Assembly (NCBI RefSeq): GCF_000025525.1 | Contig: NC_013887.1 | Location: 110,729 to 134,728 of the forward strand | DNA from: Methanocaldococcus sp. FS406-22 | Lineage (GTDB): Archaea; AGJL01; Methanococci; Methanococcales; Methanocaldococcaceae | Direction of reading: 5' to 3' | DNA: 24,000 bases | Part shown: piece after piece, positions 3,680-18,955 of the stretch | Layout of the letters: each line of letters begins with the position of its first letter | How positions within the stretch are numbered: the first letter of the stretch is position 1 | Notes under the pieces: generated by a model | Told to the model about the DNA's origin: nothing | Database searches by the model: none | The model's input: the letters and a program-made list of their open reading frames with translations, nothing else | Position numbers and translations under genes: made by a program

Positions 3680-4618
3680 GTGATTATGAGAGTTGGGATC
3701 ACAGCAATAGTTCCACCTGAAATTATTTACTCAACCAATCATATTCCTTTGGATTTAAACAATTTTGTTCCCCAATCTAATGTACATCCTAAAAATAAAC
3801 TGTGTGCTTGGACTGCTTCATGGAGAGAGTTGATTTTAGAGGATAAAATTAAAATTAATAAATTAATTGTTGTTGCTGGAGGAGATTGTCAAAATTCCCT
3901 TGTTGATGCTGAAAAGATAGAATTGAAGAAAAAAATTCCTACGCATTATTTCTTTTATCAATTTGGAGATAAAGAACATTTTGAAAATGAAATAAAAAAA
4001 CTTATTGATTTTTTAGGAGGGGATGTTGATAAAGATATTTTAAGAGAAGTTTATAAAATAAAAAAACTTGCAAAAAAAGTTGATGAATTGTGCTATAAAG
4101 ATAAAATAAATGGGAAGGATGCATTTTATACCACAATTTCTGCAAGTGATTTAAAAGGAAACCCAAATGCATACAAAAAAGAGATTGAAAATTTATTAAA
4201 CAATGAGGAGAATGTTGAATATAGGTATAGAATTGCTTTAATTGGCATACCACCAATTTTTAGTGATTTTTATGAATATCTGAATGAAATAAATGTGCAT
4301 TGTGTTTATAACGAATTACCTTATGAGTTTGTGAGGATGGGAGGAGACTCAATAAAGAGTATAGTAGACACCTATTCAACATACACGTTTGCCAACCATA
4401 TAACTAAAAGAATAAAGATTATAAAGAGAGAATTAAAAAAGAGAAAGGTTGATGGAATAATCCACTATACACAAATGTGTTGTCATCATAAGTTAGAAGA
4501 TGAAATCCTCAGAGAATTTATTGATTACCCTATGCTGACAATAGAGGGAGATATTCCCCAAAAAACACCCGAACAAGTGAAGTTAAGAATAGAAGCATTT
4601 ATAGAGATGTTGGGATAG
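3680..4618 (+). CDS. 2-hydroxyacyl-CoA dehydratase (HgdB/HGD-D family)-like subunit, single copy
   Basis: 312 aa (GTG 3680 or ATG 3686). Overall HGD-D-like layout with conserved Cys positions (GGDCQNS; IHYTQMCCHHKLEDE). It is followed 2 nt later by a cognate-type activase gene. The family call is from motif recollection, not a search. Confidence 0.7.
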   Translation: MIMRVGITAIVPPEIIYSTNHIPLDLNNFVPQSNVHPKNKLCAWTASWRELILEDKIKINKLIVVAGGDCQNSLVDAEKIELKKKIPTHYFFYQFGDKEHFENEIKKLIDFLGGDVDKDILREVYKIKKLAKKVDELCYKDKINGKDAFYTTISASDLKGNPNAYKKEIENLLNNEENVEYRYRIALIGIPPIFSDFYEYLNEINVHCVYNELPYEFVRMGGDSIKSIVDTYSTYTFANHITKRIKIIKRELKKRKVDGIIHYTQMCCHHKLEDEILREFIDYPMLTIEGDIPQKTPEQVKLRIEAFIEMLG

Positions 4619-4620
4619 CT

Positions 4621-5301
4621 ATGATGGGTATTGACGTTGGCTCAACACACATAAAAATTGCGGATGGGAAAAGTTTTAAAAAATATCCAATAATTAAATT
4701 AAATGAAATATTAAAAAAGTACAATAACGATGATGTTTTTGCAACAGGATATTTTAGAAAGAGGTTTAAAAATCACATAACTGAAATTACTGCTGCTATA
4801 TATGGAGTTGATAAAGAAATTGATGTTATAATTGATGTTGGTGGGCAGGATACAAAGATAATAAACACAAAAACATTAGAGTTTGTGATGAATGATAAAT
4901 GTGGAGCGGGGACTGGATTATTTTTACAAACCATAGCTATGTATTTGAATGTCCCTATCGAAGATTTTGGTAAGTATTATTCAAAAGATCCCTTAAAGTT
5001 AAATAATACTTGTGCTGTTTTTTCGATTTCTGAAATCATCAATTATCTTGTAAATGGTTATAGCATTAAAGATATCATAGCATCTGTAAATTACACTATA
5101 GCAAAGAAAATAGCCAATATGAATCCATATGAATGTGAAACTATTGCTCTAATTGGTGGAGTAGCAGAGAATAAGGCATTTGTTAAGTATTTTAAAGAAG
5201 TTACTGAGAAAGACGTTTACATTCCTAAAAATCCACAGTTTATAAATGCAATAGGGGCGAGAAAATATGGAATTGAACACTCAGCAAAAAATAATCTTTG
5301 A
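4621..5301 (+). CDS. CoA-substrate-specific enzyme activase (HgdC/BcrAD_BadFG ATPase family)
   Basis: 226 aa. ASKHA phosphate motifs GIDVGSTHIKI and DVGGQDTKII, adenosine motif IGGVAEN, and the two cluster-bridging Cys contexts of HgdC-type activases (MNDKCGAGTG and NNTCAVFSISE). Confidence 0.85.
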   Translation: MMGIDVGSTHIKIADGKSFKKYPIIKLNEILKKYNNDDVFATGYFRKRFKNHITEITAAIYGVDKEIDVIIDVGGQDTKIINTKTLEFVMNDKCGAGTGLFLQTIAMYLNVPIEDFGKYYSKDPLKLNNTCAVFSISEIINYLVNGYSIKDIIASVNYTIAKKIANMNPYECETIALIGGVAENKAFVKYFKEVTEKDVYIPKNPQFINAIGARKYGIEHSAKNNL

Positions 5302-5839
5302 AATTTATGATTTGTATAAGAGATTTGAGTTGATGATAAATAACAATAGAAGCAAAACCAAAAAACAAATAGAAAAGATTAAAAATGAAATTATAGTTAA
5401 GGATATTAATGATGTTAGTTATGTTGATAGGGTTCAGGAAATTTTGTTGAATTATAGAGAGATTTGGGGTTTTGTTCATAAATCATCAATAAAACAGTGG
5501 ATTACAACTTCTAAAACTATAAGTGTAGCTGGAATGTTTCATAAAGACAATTTAATTGGGGTTATGGTTTATGGGGAAAAACCAAGTTACCTCAAAATTA
5601 ATTATATTGCAGTTAATAAAAGATTCAAAGACAATTCCCTTGGAGGATATTTTATCTCATTTTTAGAGAAAAAAGCTAAAAAATTACAAAAGAAGAAAAT
5701 ATATGCTGAAGTTCCAGGAGATAATGAGGGAGGATTGGGATTCTTCATAAAAAATGGATTTATAATTGAGGGTATTTTGAAAAATCATACAAGAGGTGGT
5801 AAAGATTTAGTATTAATGGCTAAATATTTAGAGGGATAA
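5267..5839 (+). CDS. GNAT-family N-acetyltransferase with ~70-aa N-terminal extension
   Basis: 190 aa. GNAT motif A region INYIAVNKRFKDNSLGGYFISFLEKKAKK and C-terminal FFIKNGF. The track start overlaps the activase by 35 nt, and the alternative ATG at 5333 (MINNNRS) would remove the overlap. The stop lies 2 nt before the next ATG. Confidence 0.7.
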   Translation: MELNTQQKIIFEIYDLYKRFELMINNNRSKTKKQIEKIKNEIIVKDINDVSYVDRVQEILLNYREIWGFVHKSSIKQWITTSKTISVAGMFHKDNLIGVMVYGEKPSYLKINYIAVNKRFKDNSLGGYFISFLEKKAKKLQKKKIYAEVPGDNEGGLGFFIKNGFIIEGILKNHTRGGKDLVLMAKYLEG

Positions 5840-5841
5840 AC

Positions 5842-6768
5842 ATGGTAGAATTTTTTGCATCATTAACGATTTCTGCAGGAGAAATTAAAAAAATGGTTGA
5901 ACTTTTAAAGAAACATGAACCAAAAAAATGGGTTTTTGAAAATGTGATTTTTACACCTTTGGTTTCATCGGAAAGTACTATAAAAGAAATTAGAAATTTA
6001 AAGAGAAAGTATAAAACCACTGTTATGTTTGATAGTGGAGGTTATTATGTTCAACAAGAAAAATTTGAAATATCTCAACTATTCTCGTTTTTAAGGGAAT
6101 TTTATAGAACTAATAAATGGGGAGATTGGTATGTCTTACCAGATTCTCCACCAGTTTCCTCTGATGCTGTAGATACTGCCTGGGGTAAAGTTTATGAAAC
6201 TGTATATTTTGCGAAAAGTTTTGCTGAAGAATTTAATGGGAAGATGGAGAAAAAGTTTATCCCTGTTGTTCAGGGCGTTAATAGGGATATGATTCATTAT
6301 TGTGTTAAAAATTATGCTGATTTAAATGTTAGAAGAATTGGCTTTGGAAGTTTTGGAACTTGTGGGAAAAGGAATCAAATTAATAGACTTACAAAAGACA
6401 GTTTAGAAAATCTAAGATATTTATCCAGGTTAGCAAAAGAATATGGATTCGAGTTGCATGCCTTTGGTATTGGTGGGGGAAGTTCTGTAAATAAAATTAG
6501 GGATTATGTAGATAGCTTCGATAGTAGTAGTTGGGATAAAGCAGGGGGATTTGGGGATATATTTTTCCCAAATTCAAGAACTATTAATATAACTGGAAAA
6601 TCTCCAAGAACTTCTTCAAAAAATTATATTGGATATAAGTACCTAATTGAAAAATTTAGAAATGGGCATAAATGTTACTTTTGTGAAGATTTAAGTAAGT
6701 TAAAAGAGTATAAAATATATAGATCTTTACATAATATTATAGTATTGTATGAAATGGTGAAAGAATGA
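5842..6768 (+). CDS. Minimal tRNA-guanine-transglycosylase-fold protein (DpdA-like candidate DNA/RNA base-exchange enzyme)
   Basis: 308 aa. TGT landmarks occur in the canonical order: MFDSGGYY (6025-6048; TGT DSGGFQ), VLPDSP, IPVVQGV (TGT GIVQGG), IGFGSFG, HAFGIGG, DSFDSSSW (Asp at 6520-6522 aligns with the catalytic MFDCV Asp), and HKCYFC...19 aa...LHN (6667-6684; TGT Zn site CxCxxC...H). There are no PUA or C-terminal tRNA-recognition domains. Confidence 0.75.
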   Translation: MVEFFASLTISAGEIKKMVELLKKHEPKKWVFENVIFTPLVSSESTIKEIRNLKRKYKTTVMFDSGGYYVQQEKFEISQLFSFLREFYRTNKWGDWYVLPDSPPVSSDAVDTAWGKVYETVYFAKSFAEEFNGKMEKKFIPVVQGVNRDMIHYCVKNYADLNVRRIGFGSFGTCGKRNQINRLTKDSLENLRYLSRLAKEYGFELHAFGIGGGSSVNKIRDYVDSFDSSSWDKAGGFGDIFFPNSRTINITGKSPRTSSKNYIGYKYLIEKFRNGHKCYFCEDLSKLKEYKIYRSLHNIIVLYEMVKE

Positions 6769-7505
6769 AAGGGAGTTACCATATTCAGCATAATGCTAAA
6801 CCAGAAATTATAAGGAAACTAATTGAATATAACCCAAATGCCAAAAAATCAGAACTAAAAAAAGCATTTCCTGAGATAAAATCAAGTATAATTGATGATA
6901 ATTATACAATTATGAACAAACTCATAAACGTTAAAGATAAAAATGAAATTGAAAATATTTTAAAGATGGATGATGAAATGTTCAATAACTACCTCCATTA
7001 TAAGCTTTACTCATCTAAACTACCAATTGGATGGTCTTACAGGTGCGTAATAAACATATTGTATGAAGAATATAATGGTAAAAAAATTAACTATAATGAT
7101 ATTGAACAAAAAGTTAAAGAAAAAGCGTTTGATGAAGAGCTAGGAGGAATATCATTTAGTAGTAATAGCGTTCGTGGGGCGATTAACTTTATAAGGTCTT
7201 TATCCCCTTCACCAATTGACGATAATAACGTTTTCAATCTTAGAGATTATTGTCAGCCACATCTATTATTGTGGGGGGTGGACTATCTTTATAAAAAACA
7301 GTGGGGAGAAGACTATGGATCATTAATGCTTTTGGATGAGGAGAAAGTTGAAGAACTTTCTAAATTTTGTTTAATTAAAGATGATATATTAGATGATTAC
7401 CTAAAAGAACTTGATTTTATGTATGATTTTGTCGAAATATCTATAAAAGCGTTTGGAAGATATGTGAGATTGAAAAGAACATGGAATTTTAGTGATATTT
7501 TATAA
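6765..7505 (+). CDS. Hypothetical protein (246 aa), no family recognised
   Basis: Its ATG overlaps the upstream stop (ATGA at 6765-6768), giving good coding continuity in the operon. I cannot place any motif with confidence. LPIGWSYR is only vaguely reminiscent of the FPLRYGW motif I associate with DUF4007. Confidence 0.55.
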   Translation: MKGSYHIQHNAKPEIIRKLIEYNPNAKKSELKKAFPEIKSSIIDDNYTIMNKLINVKDKNEIENILKMDDEMFNNYLHYKLYSSKLPIGWSYRCVINILYEEYNGKKINYNDIEQKVKEKAFDEELGGISFSSNSVRGAINFIRSLSPSPIDDNNVFNLRDYCQPHLLLWGVDYLYKKQWGEDYGSLMLLDEEKVEELSKFCLIKDDILDDYLKELDFMYDFVEISIKAFGRYVRLKRTWNFSDIL

Positions 7506-7518
7506 AAGGGGGAGGGGT

Positions 7519-8028
7519 ATGGATTACATTACACTAATAAATTACATAAAGAGAAATTATTCCTCTAAATTCTTAACTGATAGTCAAAAGGAAGCATATA
7601 ACAAATTAAAAAAATTTCTTTTATTTGATAATGTTGTAAATCTTTATGGAAAAAGTGGGGTTGGAAAAACGTTTTTAGGATGGGTGTTTGCAAAAGATAA
7701 TAACTTTATTTATTTTAAAACTGAAGAAGAGTTCAAAAAATACAAAACAACAAGAAAAATGAATGTAATTATTGATAATGGTGAACTAAATGATGGAAGA
7801 AATATTAGGAGGTTAATTTCTCTAAAGGCAAATAAGGCAATTTATATTTCAAAAGGAGAAACTTTAGATTACAGTGTAAAGCTAACATTGAACTGGCGTG
7901 ATGTTGAACATGTTTTAGAGAATATCTCTCCAATTATTGAGAAAAATAAAAATATATATATTGACAACTTTTTTGATAGTGATTTAAATTTATGGAAAGT
8001 ATTTAAGGTGATGACATATGGATATTAG
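7519..8028 (+). CDS. Small P-loop NTPase (169 aa)
   Basis: Walker A GKSGVGKT (7648-7671) and a Walker-B-like hhhhD in NVIIDNG. I prefer the ATG at 7519, preceded by GGGGGAGGGG (7508-7517), over the track start 7492, which overlaps the previous gene. Confidence 0.65.
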   Translation: MDYITLINYIKRNYSSKFLTDSQKEAYNKLKKFLLFDNVVNLYGKSGVGKTFLGWVFAKDNNFIYFKTEEEFKKYKTTRKMNVIIDNGELNDGRNIRRLISLKANKAIYISKGETLDYSVKLTLNWRDVEHVLENISPIIEKNKNIYIDNFFDSDLNLWKVFKVMTYGY

Positions 8029-11000
8029 CTTATTGGAATACATAATAAATAAGAGTCCTGTTATAGACACCTATTCTGCTGAAAACTTAATAAATGAACC
8101 AAATTTAGTTGTGGATAAATATGAAAGCCACTTAAAAACATATATAAAGGTTGATGATGAGGAATTTGATAAAAGATTTATAAGGGAAATTAAAAAAGGA
8201 AAAACAGTAAAAGGCTATATTTCAGCTCCTTATGGTTATGGAAAGACAAGTAAAGCCTTGAGTTTGTGGGATTATTGTAAGAAAAATAACATCCTTGCAA
8301 TTCCTCCATTTAAATTCGATGGAAAACTTGATACAATAATGGATGCAGTTTATGGTTGGACAAGATATGTTTACAAACTTAAATATCCTGAGTATTTAGA
8401 CAAAATTGAGAAAATTTATAGAAAATATAAGGGTCTAAGTATAGAAAAAGAAATTGAATATTTAATGAAAAATAGAAATTTAACGGAAAATGAAGCTAAA
8501 GAGATAGTTTATGATCTTTTAAATAGGGGGAAATTAATTGTATCAATTACACCAAAAGATCTAATGAATTTCTTAAAGGAAATGAATGAAATCATAAAAG
8601 AACATTTTGAAGGTATGGCAATTTTCGTTGATGAAGTTCAGGGAATAAAAAATATGGAAATTATAAATAACTTAAGAAACTTTATTTTTGAGTTAAGCAT
8701 TAACAACATAGGTTTAGGTATTTTGTTTATAATTCCTGATTATCAGGAGGAAGATTTAAACATAAGAGCTGGAGATCTAATTGATAGACTACGAAAAGAT
8801 GGATTTTATTTAAATTTAGTAAATATATATAGTGTCAATTTCGCAGAGGACTTATGGAAAAAATACGGAGAACTTTTACAATTTAACCCCTATGATATCA
8901 TAACAGAAGATTGTTTAAGAAGTATTGGAGAGATATCATCAAGAGAAGATTTAGGAAAAGGTCCAAGAACAGTTATAGGAGCGTTTAAATGTGCATGTAT
9001 GAAATATAAAGAGAAATTTGAACCATATACAGTGTTTGATTTTATTAATGATATCTTAAATGGAGAGATTAAGTTTATACACCAAAAGTTTTTAGATGCT
9101 TTAAATGAAGGACTATCATTAAAGAAAGTTGATTCAGACAAAAAGAGAAAGGTTATTAAACTTGTAGGAGCATTTCCAAGAGGAATTTCCGAAGAAAAAA
9201 TAAAAGATTATGGATTATATGATGAATACGAGGAATTGTCAAGATTTTACTATGGAACAGAAATCGTTTATGCACTTGAAGGATATACTCTAAAAGGTCT
9301 TCTAAAAGGTGAAACAGCTACATATGTTGAACAGCATATAAGAAAATTTAGAAGCATATTTAATGAGTCTTGGGAAGGAGAAATGATTGACGCATTCATA
9401 ACTTATATATTACCTGAGATATTTCCAAGGAAAAAAGGAAGTCAAATCATGGGTTGGAGAATAGATGAAAAGTATCCTATAGTTGGGGGGTATTATCACC
9501 AATTAACAGGAACATTTAATCCGAAATATCCATTTAGAACTATTGGAGTTTATTCCTTACGATATGATACTAACGAAAAGGAGAATACATTGGTAGATGT
9601 TGAATTTAGGTTTATATTAGATAAAAACTGTAAGAATAATGATTTAGTTATTGATTATAGAAATGGCGAAGTAATTTTTAGATTTAATGTTTTAAAGAAA
9701 GTTGGAGAAGATAAACTTCCAGGAGATCTGAAAAAACTCCAACAATATGTTAAACCGCAAGAAGTAACCCCAATGTTTATGCTATGTCTATTAAATTATT
9801 TTGACAAGATAAAAGAAAAAGAAGATGAATATGCAAAGCATGAAAGTGAGATTAATGCACTAAAATCAATTCTAATAAGATATTTGAAGAGATTTTTGTT
9901 TTCTGATGATTTGGTAGAGAAATATAATTTAAGAAAACGACAGGAAAAAATCGTTGAAGAAGTATTTAACAGAATTTGTGAATATAAATTTAGAGATTAC
10001 AGCACACTAATACATTCCCCTAACTGGCATAAAGATTTGGAGAGATATAGAATTTTATTAAATTCATTATCAATTTCGAAAAGAAGAGGAGAAGAATTTG
10101 AAACCACTAAAAAGAAATTGGTTTCTATATTAACAGGTAGTAAAAATCCAAATGTTGCAGGATTTAAAGAAGAATGTGAATACGGTAAGTGGAAGGATTT
10201 AATTAATTTAAAACATTGGGGAAAAGATGAAAAAATTAGAGTAGAGTTGAAGAAACATCCACTTGAAGAAATGATATTAAAAGAATTTATTGAAAAGTGG
10301 ATACAGCCAATAAGTGTTGATGAAATAGTTAGTTATGGAATGAGTTTAGGATACATCCCAGAAGAAGTTGAAGAAATTTTAAAAATCCTTGAGAGTAGAA
10401 GATACATTGAAATTAACAAGGGATATGTCTTCAAATCTAGAGAAATAACAAATACTGATGTTCTAAATAAATTTGATGAAGTAGAAAATCTTGCAAAAAA
10501 AGTAGTGACTCTCTATATGAAGTATGGGAAAAACGTTCCTAACATACTTGTTAAACATTCAAAAAGAGAAGAGATCAAACAACAAACTGATCCTGATTTG
10601 TTATATAAAGAGCTAGAAATTATTGAGAGTTGGGAGAAGTCATTAAAGGAATATCTTAAAACTATAGAGAATGAAATAAAAAATGATAAAGAAGAATTGA
10701 TAAATAAAGTGCTAAAAATAGGGGAAAAAATAGATGACCTGAAAAATAAAATAGATAACATAAAAGAAGAGATTATTAAAACTCACTATTCATTGGGAGG
10801 AATCGTCAGGCATTTGGAAGAGCAAATAAAAATAACAAAAAAGAAATGCAACAAAATATCAAAAGATCTACTAATACTGAAAGAAAAAATAAATTCTACA
10901 AGAGATCTTGAACCTCTTGCTGAATGTCTAAATGAAGCAAAGAAAACATTTAAAAATCTGAATTATGAGTATGAGGATGTTCTTACAAAATACAATAAAT

Positions 11001-11818
11001 TTAAATCATGGTTAGGGATTTTAAGAAAATTGGAAGAATTATATGAAAAAATTGATGTTTATAGAGATTATATTGACATCAAAGAAGAACATGATAAATT
11101 CAATGAATTGATAGAAGATATAATCCAAGGATTTGCAAGAGAAGGGGCAGATTATTTAGATATGGATAGAGACGTAGAAGAGGACATAAAGTTAATAGAC
11201 GAGAATATAAAGAAAAAAGAAAGAAATCTAAGAAATGAATTTAATAAGATACAAGAAGAAATAAGAACGAAAATGAATATATTAGCTCAAACGTTAAAAC
11301 CATTGAACATTCAGCATTATTCATATAGGGAAGCATTCAGTATTGAAGATAGAGAGACAGCATATCAAAATCTAGTAAGAAATGTAAAATCATATATAAA
11401 AGAAGTTGTAGATAAGTTAAATGATCAAGTTAATCATCTAAAAGCAGAAGTTGAACTTAGATTAAATAATAATGAAAACTATATCTCTAAATTGAAAGCA
11501 ATAGGAGAAGAAGTAGAGAATATAGATATCGAAGTTATAGATAAAGACAACTTAATGGAATCTGTTGAAGAAATAAAATCCAAAATACTTGATATTTGGG
11601 AAAATTTAGAAAAAGTTAGAAAAGAAATAAAAAGAGAGATCATTGAAAGAAGTAAATCAGAAAAATCTGAGGAAGAAATAAAAATAATTGAAATATTAAA
11701 CAAATATGGTGAGATACCAATTGAAAAACTCTCAAAATATTTAAATATGGATATTGAGGGGACTTTAAAATGGTTATTAAAAATGGAAAATGTAGAAATA
11801 ATTGTAAGGAAGAAATAA
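8018..11818 (+). CDS. Large P-loop ATPase, BrxC/PglY (DUF499)-like, with C-terminal coiled coil and putative winged-helix modules
   Basis: 1266 aa. Walker A APYGYGKTS (8225-8251) and Walker B IFVDE (8621-8635). Size and N-terminal ATPase placement match BrxC/PglY. About 10590-11650 is extremely K/E/I/N/L-rich with a heptad-like pattern. wHTH-like stretches are PISVDEIVSYGMSLGYIPEEVEEILKILESRRYIEINKGYVF and the C-terminal IIEILNKYGEIPIEKLSKYLNMDIEGTLKWLLKMENVEII. The ATG is preceded by GGTGAT. The family call is inferred. Confidence 0.6.
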   Translation: MDISLLEYIINKSPVIDTYSAENLINEPNLVVDKYESHLKTYIKVDDEEFDKRFIREIKKGKTVKGYISAPYGYGKTSKALSLWDYCKKNNILAIPPFKFDGKLDTIMDAVYGWTRYVYKLKYPEYLDKIEKIYRKYKGLSIEKEIEYLMKNRNLTENEAKEIVYDLLNRGKLIVSITPKDLMNFLKEMNEIIKEHFEGMAIFVDEVQGIKNMEIINNLRNFIFELSINNIGLGILFIIPDYQEEDLNIRAGDLIDRLRKDGFYLNLVNIYSVNFAEDLWKKYGELLQFNPYDIITEDCLRSIGEISSREDLGKGPRTVIGAFKCACMKYKEKFEPYTVFDFINDILNGEIKFIHQKFLDALNEGLSLKKVDSDKKRKVIKLVGAFPRGISEEKIKDYGLYDEYEELSRFYYGTEIVYALEGYTLKGLLKGETATYVEQHIRKFRSIFNESWEGEMIDAFITYILPEIFPRKKGSQIMGWRIDEKYPIVGGYYHQLTGTFNPKYPFRTIGVYSLRYDTNEKENTLVDVEFRFILDKNCKNNDLVIDYRNGEVIFRFNVLKKVGEDKLPGDLKKLQQYVKPQEVTPMFMLCLLNYFDKIKEKEDEYAKHESEINALKSILIRYLKRFLFSDDLVEKYNLRKRQEKIVEEVFNRICEYKFRDYSTLIHSPNWHKDLERYRILLNSLSISKRRGEEFETTKKKLVSILTGSKNPNVAGFKEECEYGKWKDLINLKHWGKDEKIRVELKKHPLEEMILKEFIEKWIQPISVDEIVSYGMSLGYIPEEVEEILKILESRRYIEINKGYVFKSREITNTDVLNKFDEVENLAKKVVTLYMKYGKNVPNILVKHSKREEIKQQTDPDLLYKELEIIESWEKSLKEYLKTIENEIKNDKEELINKVLKIGEKIDDLKNKIDNIKEEIIKTHYSLGGIVRHLEEQIKITKKKCNKISKDLLILKEKINSTRDLEPLAECLNEAKKTFKNLNYEYEDVLTKYNKFKSWLGILRKLEELYEKIDVYRDYIDIKEEHDKFNELIEDIIQGFAREGADYLDMDRDVEEDIKLIDENIKKKERNLRNEFNKIQEEIRTKMNILAQTLKPLNIQHYSYREAFSIEDRETAYQNLVRNVKSYIKEVVDKLNDQVNHLKAEVELRLNNNENYISKLKAIGEEVENIDIEVIDKDNLMESVEEIKSKILDIWENLEKVRKEIKREIIERSKSEKSEEEIKIIEILNKYGEIPIEKLSKYLNMDIEGTLKWLLKMENVEIIVRKK

Positions 11819-12720
11819 AGAAAATAAAAACTCCTTGTTACTTGAAAATAAAACATAAACTTTCTCTTCTATTTTTTGATTTTGAAGAAATATCTTATGA
11901 TGATTTTTGGAGTATGATTGATGATCCAAATATTGAAATTGAATATAAGAAGTACGTAATATTGGACAAATTTGATGATCGACTACCAATTTATGAAATA
12001 GATCATAATCCTTTTACAGGGGAATTAAATAAAATCTTGAAAGAAAAATATCATCTAATTGAAAATTATATCAAGACACAAAAAGATGTTAAAGAGATTA
12101 TAATCTCTAAAGTAAACAAAAGAACTCCAAAAACAGTTGTTTTATATTTAATAGATGGGTTATCTTATGTTGATTATGTCGAAGCACAAATTCCTTATGA
12201 AGGAGAACCAATATTCGTTAATGGAGAAACATCAACTAAAAATGGTTTAATGAATATCATTTATGGAAAAAATAACATTCCAATTGCAAAAGAGCTCCAA
12301 AAATTTGGATATAGGTGCTTTGGACAGACATATTGGAATAGGAAAAATGAACTAACAGATATTTTGTTTAGATATTTTAATGAAAAATACATTTTTCACA
12401 GTGATGAAGAAATCTACAATGTAATAAATAAATACAGATCATCAAAAAAATATATCCAGATATATAGGGGAGGGTTGGATGAGTATGCACATAAATTGAG
12501 AGACATTAGTAAAAAATCCATAATTAACAAAATAAAAGAGATATTTGAAGATATAAATAAGCTAAATGATATTTTAAATAACATAAAAGAACCATATTTA
12601 GTCGTAATTACTTCAGATCATGGTATAAAGTGGAATTTTGAAGATCCTCATAAAAAAGGCAACCATAAAGAACTTACATTTGAAACGTGTTTTGTGCCTT
12701 TAATTATAATTGAGGGATAG
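11770..12720 (+). CDS. PglZ-type alkaline-phosphatase-superfamily protein
   Basis: Metal and nucleophile landmarks occur in PglZ order: VVLYLIDGLSY (Asp 12154-12156), ETSTKNGLMNIIYG, GGLDEYAH, VVITSDHG (12610-12624). The track start 11770 overlaps the previous ORF by 49 nt. An in-frame TTG at 11842 (MKIKHKL...) is the more likely start. Confidence 0.7.
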   Translation: MVIKNGKCRNNCKEEIKKIKTPCYLKIKHKLSLLFFDFEEISYDDFWSMIDDPNIEIEYKKYVILDKFDDRLPIYEIDHNPFTGELNKILKEKYHLIENYIKTQKDVKEIIISKVNKRTPKTVVLYLIDGLSYVDYVEAQIPYEGEPIFVNGETSTKNGLMNIIYGKNNIPIAKELQKFGYRCFGQTYWNRKNELTDILFRYFNEKYIFHSDEEIYNVINKYRSSKKYIQIYRGGLDEYAHKLRDISKKSIINKIKEIFEDINKLNDILNNIKEPYLVVITSDHGIKWNFEDPHKKGNHKELTFETCFVPLIIIEG

Positions 12721-12721
12721 T

Positions 12722-13882
12722 ATGCTATTCATAGGAAGAGAAAAGCTAAAAGACAGATTAGGCAATGATATTTATATAGATGCCTCAAAATCCCATGCAA
12801 TTTTTATTTGTGGTAAAAGAGGTAGTGGGAAGAGTTACACATTGGGAGTTTTAGTCGAAGAACTTCAAGAAAAGTATCCAGATTATTTAAAAATTATTAT
12901 CGATCCAATGGGGATATTTTGGACTATGGTAGAACCAAATGAAGAACAAGAAGAAGAACTTTGGGATTGGAATTTGTATGCTGAAGGATATCCAGTTAAA
13001 CTAATAGTTCCCGGAGAAATAGAGGAAAGGTTTGATGAAGATGTTATAAGAGAGTTAGAAAATAGGGGAATAGAGTTTAAAAAACTTCTTTTAAATCCTT
13101 CTGATATCTCAGCAGAGGGGTGGTGTGATTTATTCAATTTAAATATAAACGAAATGATGGGAATAGCCTTGTATAGAGCAATTGATAATATTGAGAAAGA
13201 TTTTTTCACAATAGACGATATTATTTATGAGGTTGAAAGAGATACAAAATCAAAGGAATCTACAAAAGAAGCATTAATAAATCGTCTAAACATGGCAAAA
13301 AAATGGGGAATTTTTTCAGATGAATACATCCCAATAGAAGATATTTTTGAAAGAAATGCAATAAATGTAATTGATTTAAGTGTTATTGAAAGCGGAAGAT
13401 ATGGACTGAGAGATTTAATAGTATCGATAATTGCAAAATATTTATTTAATCAACGATTGAAAGCAAGAAAAAAAGAAATGCTAAATTTACAATCAAAAAT
13501 GCCAAAAGTTTGGTTATTTATTGATGAAGCCCATAATTTCATCCCTTCTGGGAAATCAACATTATCAAAAGAGATTCTAATAAGATGGGCAAAGGAGGGA
13601 AGACAACCAGGATTGAACTTAGTTATAGCTACTCAACAACCATCAGCAATAGATAATGAAGTTTTAAGCCAATGCGACATCATCTTTGCACATAAAGTAA
13701 CAAATAGAGAGGATATAAATGCATTAAATAAGCTCAATCAAGAGTATATGGGAAAAGAGTTAAAAGTATATATTAAAGATCTAAATAAAGGAGAGTGTGT
13801 TTTTATTGATGATGAAAAAGAATTCTTAAAAATTATAAAAATAAGGCCAAGAAAAAGTAAACATGGAGGAGGAGAGAAGTAA
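12722..13882 (+). CDS. HerA/FtsK-superfamily ATPase (DUF87-like core)
   Basis: Walker A GKRGSGKSYT (12812-12841), Walker B VWLFIDEAHNF (13508-13540), then GLNLVIATQQPSAIDNEVLSQCD, typical of HerA/VirB4-like ATPases. The ATG at 12722 is preceded by GAGGGA and lies 1 nt after the upstream stop. The track start is a TTG at 12710. Confidence 0.8.
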   Translation: MLFIGREKLKDRLGNDIYIDASKSHAIFICGKRGSGKSYTLGVLVEELQEKYPDYLKIIIDPMGIFWTMVEPNEEQEEELWDWNLYAEGYPVKLIVPGEIEERFDEDVIRELENRGIEFKKLLLNPSDISAEGWCDLFNLNINEMMGIALYRAIDNIEKDFFTIDDIIYEVERDTKSKESTKEALINRLNMAKKWGIFSDEYIPIEDIFERNAINVIDLSVIESGRYGLRDLIVSIIAKYLFNQRLKARKKEMLNLQSKMPKVWLFIDEAHNFIPSGKSTLSKEILIRWAKEGRQPGLNLVIATQQPSAIDNEVLSQCDIIFAHKVTNREDINALNKLNQEYMGKELKVYIKDLNKGECVFIDDEKEFLKIIKIRPRKSKHGGGEK

Positions 13883-13938
13883 AATATATCGGAATTTCTA
13901 TGAAAAATGCTATTATGTATTATATATGGTGATTAATA

Positions 13939-15033
13939 ATGAAATTCTTCAATAGAGAGAAAGAAATCAAAGAAATTTTATCAATCTTAGAGGGAGAGCC
14001 AAATTTAATTTATTTTATCTACGGCTCTATAAATTCTGGTAAAACTACATTAATAAAACATATCATAGAAAATAGACTAAATGATAATTACAAAGTTTTC
14101 TACATTAATTTCAGAACCTACTTAATATCAGAAAAGAGGGAGTTTATTGAAGCTATTTTCACCACTAAAAAAGATGATTTCTTTGAAAAAATAAAGGATA
14201 AATCAGAGGTTTTAAATTTGATAACCAAAGGAGCTAAGATTCTAACTGGTATTCCAATTCCTGAGATTGAATTTGATAAGTTATTTGAAGAGAAGATAAA
14301 CGATGTTTTTCAGTATTTAAACAGTTTATTGTTAGCGGTTAAAAAGAGTGGGAAAAAGCCAATCCTAATATTAGATGAATTACAAATGATTAAAGATGTT
14401 GTGTTAAATGGGCAGAAATATTTATTAAAAGAGCTATTTCAATTTTTAGTATCTTTAACAAAGGAACAACATCTATGCCATGTTTTTTGTCTAAGTTCTG
14501 ATAGCTTGTTTATTGAGTATGTTTATAACGCTGGAGAGTTAGAAGGAAGAGCTGATTATATTTTAGTGGATGATTTTGATAAACAAACTGCTTTAAAGTT
14601 TATTGATTTCTTAGCAAGGGAGAATAATATGGAACTTTCTGATGAGGATAAGGAATTAATCTACTCTTATGTTGGTGGAAAGCCAATTTTAATAATAAAG
14701 GTATTTGATAAGCTAAAAACAGAAAGAAAATTAAAAGATATTTTAGATACTATACTTAAAGAAGAAGCACAAAAATTAAGATACTTTTTAAAAGATCTGG
14801 ACTATATAAAACCAAAAGTTAATATTGAAGATGAAGTTATTGAAATTAAAAAAGAAGACATAATTGAGGCGTTAAGATTGTTTAAAGATAACTATGAAAT
14901 TAGCGATGATAAAATTCCAAAACCAGTTTATATTTATTTAATTAAAAGAAACATTTTATTCTTAGACCCTATTGAAGGGACTCTAAAACCGCAATCATTT
15001 TTAATCTGGAATGCGATAAAAAGGATTTTATAA
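13939..15033 (+). CDS. Archaeal ATPase family protein (Arch_ATPase/PF01637-like)
   Basis: 364 aa. [12 protein letters not shown]... N-terminus, Walker [10 protein letters not shown] (14023-14049) and Walker B ILILDELQ. It resembles the multi-copy M. jannaschii archaeal ATPase paralog family, and by position is probably the MJ0147 counterpart (from memory). GGTGAT precedes the ATG. Confidence 0.85.
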
Positions 15034-18267: not shown

Positions 18268-18672
18268 TCTCTCCCTTTAGTATATTTTTTAAATATTTTT
18301 TGGTTTCGCTTAAAAATATATGTCCTTTGTGAAGTAAATCTTCAGCTTCTTCTTTCTTTATTTCAATGGTTGCGTCATAATCAGCAGTTTGCCCTATAAT
18401 CATACGCTTCGGTTATATATTCGAACAATTCGACACTTAACTCATTAGTTTTTATAAATTCTTTTGCAAACATTTTTAAAATTCCACTATGTTTTTTAGG
18501 GCTAATTTCTTTTGTTAATAATAAAGCCTTAGCACAATAAAACATTGAGTAATATATTCTTGAAACAGCAAAATCATAAAATTCGCATATTATAAAGATT
18601 TTCTGATGCTTTTATGGATTTTTCTGCTTTTTCTATCAATTTTTTAATCTCTTTTTTATATTTCAATTCCAT
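18248..18672 (-). pseudogene. HEPN-domain protein gene (partner of the MNT nucleotidyltransferase) disrupted by two frameshifts
   Basis: Minus-strand ATG at 18672 gives MELKYKKEIKKLIEKAEKSIKASENLYNMRIL* (stop 18574-18576). The next frame reads CEFYDFAVSRIYYSMFYCAKALLLTKEISPKKHSGILKMFAKEFIKTNELSVELFEYITEAYDYRANC* (stop 18381-18383). The third frame reads QTADYDATIEIKKEEAEDLLHKGHIFLSETKKYLKNILKGENDNTKS* (stop 18248-18250). Joined, these form a ~140-aa HEPN-like protein. The second shift sits at the GGG run 18392-18394. Confidence 0.7.
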
Positions 18673-18955
18673 AACTTTCAACCTCATCAATAAAAGATGT
18701 TCTTATAGTTTTTTTGTAAATTATTGGGCTAATTAAAATATCATATTTTAACGAATATCTTGAAGCAATTTTAATAATTTTTTCTTTTTCTTTAAGAGTA
18801 GGCATTTCTTTAACCAAAATTAAAATATCAACGTCACTCTCTTCATCATAATCTCCTCTTGCATAACTTCCAAATAAAATGACTCTATCCAATTTATCTT
18901 TTAAAATGGTTAATATATCCTTTTTAAACTCCTTTATAATTTCAATGATTTCCAT
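18656..18955 (-). CDS. Minimal nucleotidyltransferase (MNT; antitoxin-type partner of HEPN)
   Basis: 99 aa. Pol-beta NTase signature LFGSYARGDYDEESDVDILILV. Its 3' end overlaps the HEPN pseudogene start. Confidence 0.85.
   Translation of the reverse strand: MEIIEIIKEFKKDILTILKDKLDRVILFGSYARGDYDEESDVDILILVKEMPTLKEKEKIIKIASRYSLKYDILISPIIYKKTIRTSFIDEVESYGIEI

What the first reader, a model, noticed from the sequence alone, without database searches (positions are those of the whole stretch)
5842..13882. BREX-like core (BrxC/PglY-like ATPase + PglZ) wired to a TGT/DpdA-like transglycosylase instead of a methyltransferase: candidate undescribed archaeal DNA-modification/defence operon
Seen: six same-strand ORFs with 1-23 nt gaps or short overlaps (ATGA overlap at 6765-6768; 8018/8028; 12720/12722). 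The order is TGT-fold enzyme (308 aa), 246-aa orphan, 169-aa mini P-loop, 1266-aa P-loop/coiled-coil protein, PglZ-type phosphatase-fold protein, HerA/FtsK-type ATPase. Established: BREX systems are defined by the BrxC/PglY (large DUF499 P-loop ATPase) + PglZ pair joined to a DNA-modification module. That module is PglX methyltransferase in most types and PAPS-reductase-like BrxP in type 4; the related haloarchaeal PbeABCD works with Dnd phosphorothioation. DpdA-type TGT paralogs insert preQ0 into DNA in bacterial dpd islands and phages. Inference: here the modification slot appears to be filled by a base-exchange enzyme. I see no methyltransferase, PAPS reductase, Lon-like BrxL or obvious nuclease in the operon. 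A methanogen host already makes preQ0 for tRNA archaeosine, so no dedicated 7-deazaguanine biosynthesis genes would be needed. I know of no described BREX type or dpd variant with this gene combination.
Basis: partly seen in the sequence, partly recalled or inferred. Interest (0 to 1): 0.92.

Follow-up and report, generated by a model that had tools for sequence, protein, structure and literature searches.

The report
BREX-like defence operon with base-exchange enzyme
This is a real, widely conserved gene cassette that joins BREX-like defence proteins and a HerA motor to a guanine-exchange enzyme and an acetyltransferase, but this type of system was already described by computer analysis in 2025/26 ("BRC system") and has never been tested experimentally.

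Summary
The ORFs exist as described. The window is Methanocaldococcus sp. FS406-22, genes MFS40622_0126-0134. The BREX-like-plus-TGT reading holds, but "undescribed" and "archaeal" do not.

Rakesh & Krishnan (NAR 2026; bioRxiv Oct 2025) defined the seven-component "BREX-Related Capture" (BRC) system: GNAT, TGT, DUF4007/BrxA-like, small NTPase, BrxC-like ATPase, short PglZ and HerA. Their alignments include a Methanosarcina barkeri locus. Six window genes are collinear orthologues of that locus.

Of 63 loci with enough flank, 44 carry all seven parts; most are bacterial.

The TGT fold and catalytic motifs are well supported. PglZ and BrxC assignments rest mainly on weak-to-moderate HMM hits to orthologues. 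The BrxA and BrxB assignments could not be reproduced by sequence.

New here:
- In methanogens only, a 2-hydroxyacyl-CoA-dehydratase/double-cubane-like reductase and its activase (3686-5301) travel with the cassette.
- A four-gene short form (GNAT, TGT, BrxA-like, BrxC-like) exists.
- Many bacterial loci add a sigma-70-domain protein.

Function remains wholly inferred. Verdict: new member of a known, predicted-only kind.

The parts
3686..4618 (+). 2-hydroxyacyl-CoA dehydratase D-component / double-cubane-cluster reductase-like protein (MFS40622_0126). Candidate methanogen-specific accessory gene of the island.
   Evidence: NCBIfam double_cubane E 2.8e-12, below cut-off. Three invariant Cys residues. 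Adjacent to the cassette in all six methanogen genome loci, two of which have unrelated flanks. Cassette-linked subclades A and B are distinct from cassette-less group C. Its 90% cluster lacks the Methanocaldococcus species that share the flanking core genes.
4621..5301 (+). Acyl-CoA dehydratase activase (BcrAD/BadFG-type ATPase, MFS40622_0127), partner of the previous gene. Candidate accessory.
   Evidence: TIGR00241 E 5e-40, above cut-off. Same linkage evidence as the previous gene. Its end overlaps the GNAT start by 35 nt.
5267..5839 (+). GNAT N-acetyltransferase (MFS40622_0128), BRC component.
   Evidence: Pfam Acetyltransf_1 E 2.2e-6. Matches an HMM built from 62 cassette GNATs of other lineages at E 6.5e-14 over almost the full length. 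Fused N-terminally to the TGT in many homologues of 460-520 aa.
5842..6768 (+). TGT-superfamily base-exchange enzyme (MFS40622_0129): catalytic barrel plus Zn subdomain only.
   Evidence: AF2 pLDDT 90.5. Foldseek hits to bacterial TGT (E 3.7e-10, TM 0.64-0.66) and to arcTGT. Invariant D64-S-G-G, D101, Q144-G145 (Q144 conserved in at least 90% of sequences, G145 invariant), D227, H276/C278/C281/H297. The catalytic FDS Asp and the CxxC...HN motif align with arcTGT 1iq8 and DpdA 7ui4. The Pfam TGT hit is only E 7.4e-4, below the gathering threshold.
6765..7505 (+). 246-aa protein (MFS40622_0130), orthologue of the component that the BRC paper calls DUF4007/BrxA-like DNA-binding protein.
   Evidence: Always directly follows the TGT gene (78 orthologues). 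No Pfam hit in any of the 78. Only a faint N-terminal wHTH-like match (ArgR, E 0.19). hhalign against E. coli BrxA is not significant.
7519..8028 (+). 169-aa P-loop NTPase (MFS40622_0131) with intact Walker A and B motifs. The BRC paper calls it an active STAND NTPase/BrxB counterpart.
   Evidence: Invariant G44..G49-K50-T51 and D86. Weak AAA/nSTAND3 hits. PDB profile matches are confined to the P-loop region. hhalign against E. coli BrxB is not significant.
8018..11818 (+). 1266-aa BrxC-like P-loop ATPase with a long C-terminal coiled coil (MFS40622_0132).
   Evidence: 100% identical to P0121. Invariant G73-Y-G-K-T77 and D205-E206. 10 of 37 orthologues hit PF10923 BrxC_BrxD, best E 6e-8. Residues from about 830 onward give only coiled-coil matches. 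The window protein itself has no significant family hit.
11770..12720 (+). 316-aa short PglZ-like (alkaline-phosphatase-superfamily) protein (MFS40622_0133).
   Evidence: Pfam PglZ E 0.012 for the window protein. 16 of 51 orthologues hit PF08665. 32 of 51 hit PADLOC PglZ models, best E 6.1e-7, and no other family is hit. Invariant D129, T156, D237, H241, D283-H284, H299. hhalign against E. coli HS PglZ gives E 5e-5 over the C-terminal HGG..E..VP motif. The structure search was inconclusive.
12722..13882 (+). HerA/FtsK-type ATPase (MFS40622_0134).
   Evidence: Pfam DUF87 E 1.4e-13. PADLOC HerA E 2.1e-28 and mad8 E 6.5e-26 over the full length. It is the most conserved cassette protein: 95% identity to other Methanocaldococcus and 58% to M. 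barkeri.

Best explanation
The locus is a member of the computationally defined BREX-Related Capture (BRC) system, carried on a horizontally mobile island in Methanocaldococcus sp. FS406-22.

Shown here: seven tightly packed, co-oriented genes encode a GNAT acetyltransferase, a TGT-fold enzyme with an intact transglycosylase active site, a small protein that always follows the TGT, a small active P-loop NTPase, a BrxC-like giant ATPase with a coiled-coil tail, a short PglZ-like metallo-phosphoesterase and a HerA ATPase. The set is co-inherited across archaea and bacteria.

Inferred mechanism:
1. The TGT exchanges guanine in host DNA for a 7-deazaguanine base. The host already makes preQ0 for archaeosine.
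2. The GNAT, often fused to the TGT, adds to or tunes that mark.
3. The BrxC-like, 246-aa and small-NTPase proteins form a BREX-like DNA-surveillance complex that checks the mark.
4. HerA translocates unmarked invader DNA to the PglZ-like effector.

None of the functional steps has been tested in any organism.
For: Orthology and synteny with a published BRC locus. The M. barkeri 3 GNAT and PglZ are listed in the paper's BRC alignments. Window genes from TGT to HerA are collinear with that locus at 30-58% identity.

All seven components are present. The cassette recurs: 44 of 63 informative loci have all seven, and the TGT is almost never without the GNAT and the 246-aa protein.

The TGT fold and catalytic residues are supported. 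The PglZ and BrxC links come through orthologues. HerA is supported directly.

Accessory, defence-like behaviour:
- The distribution is patchy. In M. indicus and Methanothermococcus the island sits between different flanking genes.
- Between close relatives the NTPase (62%), BrxC-like (71-78%) and PglZ-like (70-72%) proteins diverge much faster than HerA (95%) or the flanking core genes (89-95%).
- The PglZ-like family is rare: 121 clusters among 1.84 billion representatives.

The published model is in PMC12839542, section 36. DpdA sets the precedent for TGT-type enzymes that insert preQ0 into DNA with ATPase help (PMC10164549).
Against: There is no experimental evidence for defence, for DNA modification or for any enzymatic activity.

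The TGT family is as far from DpdA (E 0.03) as from tRNA TGTs (E 0.0011), so a DNA substrate is an assumption. No DpdB or DpdC homologue is present.

The window's own BrxC-like and PglZ-like proteins do not reach significance against any library. The PglZ model found no significant structural match. A profile built from Methanococci did not reach canonical long PglZ proteins. The BrxA and BrxB assignments were not reproducible by sequence or profile methods.

No nuclease is recognisable. The window neighbourhood is housekeeping rather than a defence island.
Confidence: 0.6

Rival explanations
1. The GNAT-TGT pair is a tRNA-directed effector rather than a DNA self-marking module. On activation by the BREX-like/HerA sensor, it alters or acetylates (aminoacyl-)tRNA and stops translation, giving abortive infection.
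For: The ancestral substrate of the TGT superfamily is tRNA, and the best profile hit is archaeosine tRNA-guanine transglycosylase (E 0.0011, against 0.03 for DpdA). From my own knowledge, GNAT toxins such as TacT and AtaT acetylate charged tRNA. No DpdB-like partner is present. The family is almost absent from viral contigs, unlike DpdA.
Against: The protein is only the catalytic barrel plus Zn subdomain (308 aa). It has no PUA or other tRNA-binding C-terminal domains. It is invariably followed by the 246-aa protein and a BrxC-like protein, even in the four-gene short form that lacks PglZ and HerA. That looks like a modification-plus-recognition unit. An effector kept constitutively fused to a GNAT would need an unseen inhibitor.
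Confidence: 0.12
2. The TGT-fold enzyme is itself the restriction effector. It removes guanine, or a modified guanine, from invading DNA and leaves abasic sites or covalent adducts. HerA feeds the DNA in, and PglZ processes the ends.
For: No nuclease is recognisable in the operon. From my own knowledge, the TGT mechanism passes through a covalent enzyme-ribose intermediate that could be hydrolysed. Both catalytic Asp residues are conserved.
Against: The conserved Q144-G145, D101 and G167-G169 motifs look like a base-binding pocket retained for an incoming base (inferred at motif level). Conserved linkage or fusion to a GNAT is not explained. All characterised TGT-family enzymes are exchangers, not glycosylases (own knowledge).
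Confidence: 0.1
3. The cassette is not an immune system. It could be a DNA-maintenance or epigenetic system, for example a chromosome-marking and repair system, or a mobile element's own maintenance module.
For: In the window it sits among housekeeping genes, with no integrase, tRNA or att repeats. Defence is inferred only from homology to BREX and HerA components.
Against: The distribution across domains is patchy, the island is flanked by different genes in different genomes, and the putative sensor proteins evolve fast. Some loci have PLD, HNH-SBD, DndE, toxin-antitoxin or SNF2 helicase neighbours. HerA matches anti-phage HerA models best.
Confidence: 0.08

Closest known systems
BREX-Related Capture (BRC) system (Rakesh & Krishnan, Nucleic Acids Res 2026, PMC12839542; bioRxiv 10.1101/2025.10.09.681413)
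   Same: It has the same seven components: GNAT, TGT, DUF4007/BrxA-like, small active NTPase, BrxC-like ATPase, short PglZ and HerA. It shows the same occasional GNAT-TGT fusion. The window genes are collinear orthologues of the M. barkeri locus used in that paper.
   Different: [quoted passage not shown] Methanocaldococcus does not occur in the supplements held here, so Methanococci appear to be an added class. The paper started from PglZ and states that HerA is universal and TGT/GNAT occur in a subset. Starting from the TGT, I find 13 of 63 loci with only GNAT, TGT, the 246-aa protein and a BrxC-like protein. I also find a reductase/activase pair linked in methanogens and a sigma-70-domain protein in about 46 bacterial loci. 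The paper mentions none of these.
Canonical BREX (types 1-6; Goldfarb et al. 2015)
   Same: A large BrxC-type P-loop ATPase is paired with a PglZ-family protein and small accessory proteins, and the logic is modification-dependent.
   Different: There is no PglX methyltransferase, BrxP or BrxL. The PglZ is only about 316-370 aa, against about 865 aa in E. coli HS. HerA is added. Similarity to E. coli HS BrxA, BrxB and BrxC is undetectable by hhalign against single sequences.
Dpd 7-deazaguanine restriction-modification system (DpdA/B/C plus DpdD-K; Thiaville 2016; Gedara 2023, PMC10164549)
   Same: A TGT-superfamily enzyme lacking tRNA-binding domains sits in a multi-ATPase defence-like cluster. 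The catalytic Asp and Zn-site regions align with DpdA 7ui4.
   Different: There is no ParB-like DpdB, no DUF328 DpdC and no DpdD-K. The TGT is a separate clade (E 0.03 to DpdA). A GNAT partner is present, and the family is virtually absent from phage contigs.
HerA/FtsK-anchored capture systems (DndFGH-like) and MADS Mad8
   Same: A stand-alone HerA-type ATPase is the most conserved member. It matches anti-phage HerA models, and it matches the PADLOC mad8 model over its full length (E 6.5e-26).
   Different: No DndF, DndG or DndH, no nuclease domain, and no other MADS component was detected. The MADS primary paper could not be read here.

Membership tests
BRC system (PMC12839542) | HerA/FtsK translocase present (stated to be universal) | tested here: met
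   12722-13882: DUF87 E 1.4e-13, PADLOC HerA E 2.1e-28.
BRC system (PMC12839542) | Short PglZ lacking the C-terminal extensions of BREX PglZ | tested here: met
   The protein is 316 aa. 32 of 51 orthologues hit only PglZ models (best E 6.1e-7). The metal-ligand pattern is invariant. hhalign gives E 5e-5 to the E. coli PglZ C-terminal motif. The window protein alone scores only E 0.012, and the structure search was inconclusive.
BRC system (PMC12839542) | BrxC-like ('DUF6079') ORC/Cdc6-type ATPase | tested here: inconclusive
   Walker A and B are invariant. 10 of 37 orthologues hit PF10923 BrxC_BrxD, best E 6e-8. No orthologue produced any other BrxC-type or DUF family hit at E <= 0.01. hhalign against E. 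coli BrxC gives E 0.16. The four-domain architecture was not tested.
BRC system (PMC12839542) | DUF4007/BrxA-like tripartite DNA-binding protein | tested here: inconclusive
   The window gene is a positional orthologue of the M. barkeri gene. However, 0 of 78 orthologues hit any relevant Pfam family, no PDB match to 6lb9 was found, and hhalign against BrxA gives E 0.13.
BRC system (PMC12839542) | Small enzymatically active STAND-type NTPase (BrxB counterpart) | tested here: inconclusive
   An active P-loop is confirmed (invariant GKT and D86). The STAND class and the relation to BrxB are not shown.
BRC system (PMC12839542) | GNAT and TGT modification module (present in a subset, sometimes fused) | tested here: met
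   GNAT at 5267-5839. TGT at 5842-6768. Fusions occur in homologues.
BRC system (PMC12839542) | Orthology and collinearity with a locus listed by the authors | tested here: met
   The M. barkeri 3 GNAT WP_048108637 and PglZ WP_048108644 are in the paper's alignments. L001 is that locus, and six window proteins are collinear with it.
Canonical BREX | DNA methyltransferase PglX (or BrxP in type 4) | tested here: not met
   No methyltransferase or PAPS-reductase hit in any ORF from 3680 to 15033.
Canonical BREX | BrxC/PglY plus long PglZ pair | tested here: inconclusive
   Distant HMM-level links only. The PglZ is about one third of the canonical length.
Dpd system | DpdA-clade DNA-guanine transglycosylase | tested here: inconclusive
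   The protein has the TGT fold and catalytic residues. It is not specifically closer to DpdA: E 0.03 against 0.0011 for arcTGT.
Dpd system | ParB-like ATPase DpdB and DUF328 DpdC | tested here: not met
   No such hits in the operon. The BRC paper reports the same.
TGT superfamily (PF01702) | TIM-barrel fold, two catalytic Asp residues and a Zn site | tested here: met
   pLDDT 90.5. Foldseek E 3.7e-10, TM about 0.65. D64, D227 and H276/C278/C281/H297 are invariant. The Pfam score is 19.1 bits, below the 26.3-bit cut-off.
TGT superfamily (PF01702) | Base-exchange activity and the nature of the substrate (DNA or tRNA; which base) | not testable with these tools
   Requires biochemistry and nucleoside mass spectrometry.

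The most novel reading that the evidence does not exclude
In methanogens the cassette is really a nine-gene island. The extra double-cubane/2-hydroxyacyl-CoA-dehydratase-like protein and its ATP-dependent activase (3686-5301) would tailor the exchanged base. One route is low-potential reduction of the nitrile of preQ0 to the amine preQ1, which archaea lacking QueF cannot otherwise make. The GNAT would then N-acetylate that amine. The self-mark would be an acylated aminomethyl-7-deazaguanine, a DNA modification not yet described, read by a BREX-like/HerA machine. Bacterial hosts would use their own QueF, which would explain why the pair is methanogen-specific.
Probability: 0.08. Interest if true: 0.85.

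Novelty: new member of a known kind. Interest (0 to 1): 0.5.

Why it matters
If BRC systems work as predicted, BREX-type immunity can use base exchange, and possibly acylation, instead of methylation or phosphorothioation as its self-mark. It would also put 7-deazaguanine in the chromosomal DNA of archaea.

This locus supplies a complete copy in a cultured, fully sequenced hyperthermophilic methanogen that already makes preQ0. It is a practical starting point for nucleoside mass spectrometry and biochemistry.

The TGT-centred survey adds to the published description:
- a wider host range, with 120 species-level genomes carrying the TGT;
- a minimal four-gene form;
- lineage-specific partners, a reductase/activase pair in methanogens and a sigma-domain protein in bacteria.

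These additions narrow down which genes form the modification core and which form the exchangeable effector arm.

Tried and rejected
- **Single-sequence PDB searches.** Searches with the TGT, BrxC-like and PglZ-like proteins returned nothing useful.
- **BrxC-like profile against PDB.** The matches were dominated by coiled-coil artefacts.
- **hhalign against single E. coli HS proteins.** BrxA, BrxB and BrxC gave nothing significant. A single-sequence template is weak, so this does not exclude homology.
- **PglZ profile from Methanococci.** A search of 1.84 billion representatives reached only the short BRC-type family, not canonical PglZ.
- **MADS.** Only HerA matches a MADS model (mad8). No other Mad protein is detectable, and the primary paper was not available.
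- **Integration signatures.** There are no tRNA genes, no integrase and no convincing flanking repeats. The 30-nt, 77% identical pair at 3721 and 15443 is most likely chance in AT-rich DNA.
- **ScoMcrA-SBD/HNH neighbour.** It occurs in only one organism and is not a recurring part.
- **Cassette-less relatives of the reductase pair.** They share no conserved neighbours, so they give no clue to function.
- **Phage carriage of the TGT.** Only 2 of 2.9 million viral contigs carry it, and both look like host flanks.
- **Archaeal ATPase at 13939-15033.** It is absent from the same site in Methanocaldococcus sp. 16A, so it is not counted as part of the system.

Full report
**Observation**

The window has low GC content (0.25-0.33) and a uniform positive GC skew from about 3 kb to 17 kb. 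It is Methanocaldococcus sp. FS406-22. The 1266-aa and 316-aa products are 100% identical to MFS40622_0132 and MFS40622_0133. Exact look-ups place 3686-6768 at MFS40622_0126-0129.

Junctions:
- ATGA overlap at 6765-6768;
- a 13-nt gap before the ATG at 7519, which is where orthologues of the small P-loop protein start;
- an 11-nt overlap at 8018/8028;
- a 1-nt gap before the HerA ATG at 12722, which is preceded by GAGGGA.

The PglZ-like gene starts at ATG 11770, not at the TTG at 11842. Residues encoded upstream of 11842 are invariant in eight orthologues, and the deposited protein is 316 aa.

A GNAT gene (5267-5839) ends 2 nt before the TGT gene. It is overlapped by 35 nt by the gene at 4621-5301, which follows 3686-4618 after 2 nt.

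**What each gene is**

- **TGT-like protein.** It scores below Pfam's threshold (E 7.4e-4) and has no PDB match by sequence. A 64-sequence alignment shows these invariant residues: D64-S-G-G, D101, G145, G167-F-G-S-F, D227 and H276/C278/C281/H297. V143 and Q144 are conserved in at least 90% of sequences. The AlphaFold model has pLDDT 90.5. It matches bacterial TGT at Foldseek E 3.7e-10 (TM 0.64-0.66) and also matches archaeosine TGT. In profile alignments the FDS aspartate and the CxxC...HN zinc motif line up with arcTGT 1iq8 and with the DNA enzyme DpdA 7ui4. The E-values are 0.0011 and 0.03. The family is therefore its own TGT clade, not a DpdA subfamily.
- **GNAT.** It matches Pfam Acetyltransf_1 (E 2.2e-6). 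It also matches an HMM built from 62 cassette GNATs of other lineages (E 6.5e-14).
- **HerA.** The assignment is unambiguous (DUF87 E 1.4e-13; PADLOC HerA E 2.1e-28).
- **1266-aa protein.** It has invariant Walker A and B motifs and a coiled-coil C-terminal third. It has no family hit of its own, but 10 of 37 orthologues match PF10923 BrxC_BrxD, with a best E of 6e-8.
- **316-aa protein.** It scores E 0.012 against Pfam PglZ. 16 of 51 orthologues hit PF08665. 32 of 51 hit PADLOC PglZ models and nothing else, with a best E of 6.1e-7. The family keeps an alkaline-phosphatase-type ligand set (D129, T156, D237, H241, D283-H284, H299). Its C-terminal HGG..E..VP motif aligns with E. coli HS PglZ (hhalign E 5e-5). 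The structure model, built from a shallow alignment (pLDDT 76), gave no significant Foldseek match. A profile from Methanococci found only 121 short relatives among 1.84 billion representatives.
- **169-aa protein.** It is an active P-loop NTPase. Its class was not resolved here.
- **246-aa protein.** It has no detectable family.

**Conservation**

Homologues of the TGT number more than 400, and many are fused to an N-terminal GNAT. Neighbourhoods in M. barkeri 3, an Ardenticatenaceae genome and a metagenome show the same gene series. Six of the window proteins are collinear with these.

A scan of one genome per species found 120 genomes that carry the family. They include Methanococci, Methanosarcina, a haloarchaeon, Chloroflexota, Poribacteria, Latescibacterota, Acidobacteriota, Gemmatimonadota, Armatimonadota and a Desulfovirgula.

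Of 63 loci with at least 8.5 kb downstream of the TGT gene, 44 hold all seven components. A further 13 hold only GNAT, TGT, the 246-aa protein and a BrxC-like protein.

**Comparison with what is known**

A full-text search found Rakesh & Krishnan, NAR 2026 (PMC12839542; bioRxiv 10 Oct 2025). That paper defines the "BREX-Related Capture" system with exactly these seven components. It notes the occasional GNAT-TGT fusion and the absence of DpdB and DpdC. It proposes the same model: GNAT/TGT self-marking, a BREX-like sensing complex, and HerA feeding DNA to PglZ.

The paper's alignments include M. barkeri WP_048108637 (GNAT) and WP_048108644 (PglZ). The translated GNAT of my locus L001 matches the printed sequence. 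The window locus is therefore an orthologue of a published BRC locus.

The paper is purely computational. It reports 45 taxa, and Methanocaldococcus does not occur in the supplements held here.

The labels "DUF6079", "DUF4007/BrxA" and "STAND/BrxB" could not be reproduced with sequence or profile tools. They rest on the authors' structural comparisons.

**Beyond the paper**

1. **Reductase and activase linked in methanogens.**
   - The two genes upstream of the GNAT encode a double-cubane/2-hydroxyacyl-CoA-dehydratase-like protein and its activase.
   - They abut the cassette in every methanogen locus. They lie upstream in three Methanocaldococcus genomes and one Methanothermococcus, and downstream of HerA in two Methanosarcina.
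   - M. indicus and Methanothermococcus have unrelated flanking genes, so the pair moves with the cassette.
   - A reverse scan of metagenomes splits the family into two cassette-linked clades and a larger cassette-less clade. The cassette-less clade is 44-58% identical to the window and M. barkeri 3 proteins and has no conserved neighbours.
   - The 90% clusters of the pair contain only cassette-bearing organisms. Clusters of the flanking core genes include M. jannaschii, M. fervens, M. bathoardescens or many Methanosarcina species.
   - The paper does not mention these genes.
   - Functional linkage is plausible but not proven.
2. **Sigma-70-domain protein in bacteria.** About 46 bacterial loci encode a 580-1140-aa protein with sigma-70 regions 2 and 4, directly upstream of the TGT gene on the same strand. 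The paper does not list it among the BRC components.
3. **Four-gene short form.** It is sometimes followed by an SNF2 helicase, or carries a second copy of the 246-aa and BrxC-like genes. This suggests that GNAT, TGT, the 246-aa protein and the BrxC-like protein form the core. PglZ, HerA and the small NTPase would then be an exchangeable arm.
4. **Uneven divergence.** Between close relatives the small NTPase, the BrxC-like protein and PglZ diverge far faster than HerA.
5. **Rare in viruses.** The TGT family is almost absent from viral contigs.

**Context**

The island lies between cbf5 and arfA among housekeeping genes. There is no tRNA gene, integrase or convincing att repeat. The archaeal ATPase at 13939-15033 is missing from the same site in strain 16A and is not part of the system.

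**Verdict**

The locus is a new member of a predicted, experimentally untested kind.

How it works is inference. The main rivals are a tRNA-directed GNAT/TGT effector, a base-excising effector, and a non-immune role.

Noticed in passing
window 3686-5301; L001 18900-20596; L006-L009; L088-L091, L097, L115: A double-cubane/2-hydroxyacyl-CoA-dehydratase-like protein and its activase are attached to the cassette in all methanogen loci. They lie upstream in Methanococci and downstream in Methanosarcina, including in genomes with different flanks. Cassette-less relatives (44-58% identity) form a separate group. The BRC paper does not mention them.
   Followed up: partly
L003/L017 7116-9977, L024 7884-9995 and about 44 other bacterial loci: A large (580-1140 aa) protein with sigma-70 region 2 and 4 domains is encoded directly upstream of, and co-oriented with, the TGT gene in most Chloroflexota, Latescibacterota and Acidobacteriota loci. 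It is absent from archaea and Poribacteria.
   Followed up: partly
L015, L024, L025, L033, L043, L050, L052, L054, L055, L069; duplicated in L028, L065, L072, L082: A four-gene short form (GNAT, TGT, 246-aa protein, BrxC-like) lacks PglZ, HerA and the small NTPase. It accounts for 13 of 63 informative loci. Some are followed by an SNF2 helicase, and some carry a second 246-aa plus BrxC-like pair.
   Followed up: partly
window 7519-12720 compared with L006/L007: Divergence within the island is uneven between Methanocaldococcus strains. HerA is 95% identical and TGT 84-85%. The small NTPase is 62%, the BrxC-like protein 71-78% and PglZ 70-72%. The flanking core genes are 89-95%.
   Followed up: no
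window 13939-15033: An MJ1010-type archaeal ATPase (ATPase_2, E 2e-70) sits between HerA and arfA. It is absent from the same site in Methanocaldococcus sp. 16A (L006), so it is a strain-specific extra gene. It gives weak PADLOC hits (PDC-S27).
   Followed up: partly
L008 11684-16028: In Methanothermococcus sp. Ax23, four co-oriented ORFs (749, 215, 195 and 290 aa) are inserted between the 246-aa gene and the small NTPase gene. The 749-aa protein has no PDB match by sequence.
   Followed up: no
L002 compared with L003: A metagenome contig carries the identical TGT and sigma-like genes, but the small NTPase, BrxC-like and PglZ genes are deleted and HerA is truncated at its N-terminus. This is a natural deletion derivative or an assembly artefact.
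   Followed up: partly
window 12722-13882: The HerA protein matches the PADLOC mad8 (MADS system) model over its full length (E 6.5e-26). General HerA models cover only its C-terminal half. No other MADS component is detectable.
   Followed up: partly
window 18656-18955 (- strand); L001 8226-8576: Small minimal nucleotidyltransferase (NTP_transf_2) genes, typical of HEPN/MNT toxin-antitoxin pairs, lie within a few kb of the cassette in both FS406-22 and M. barkeri 3. This is probably coincidental.
   Followed up: no
L003 19503-20480 and 20845-20979: In one Ardenticatenaceae genome the cassette is followed by a ScoMcrA-type sulfur-binding-domain HNH nuclease and a DndE fragment. This association occurs only in that organism.
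   Followed up: yes
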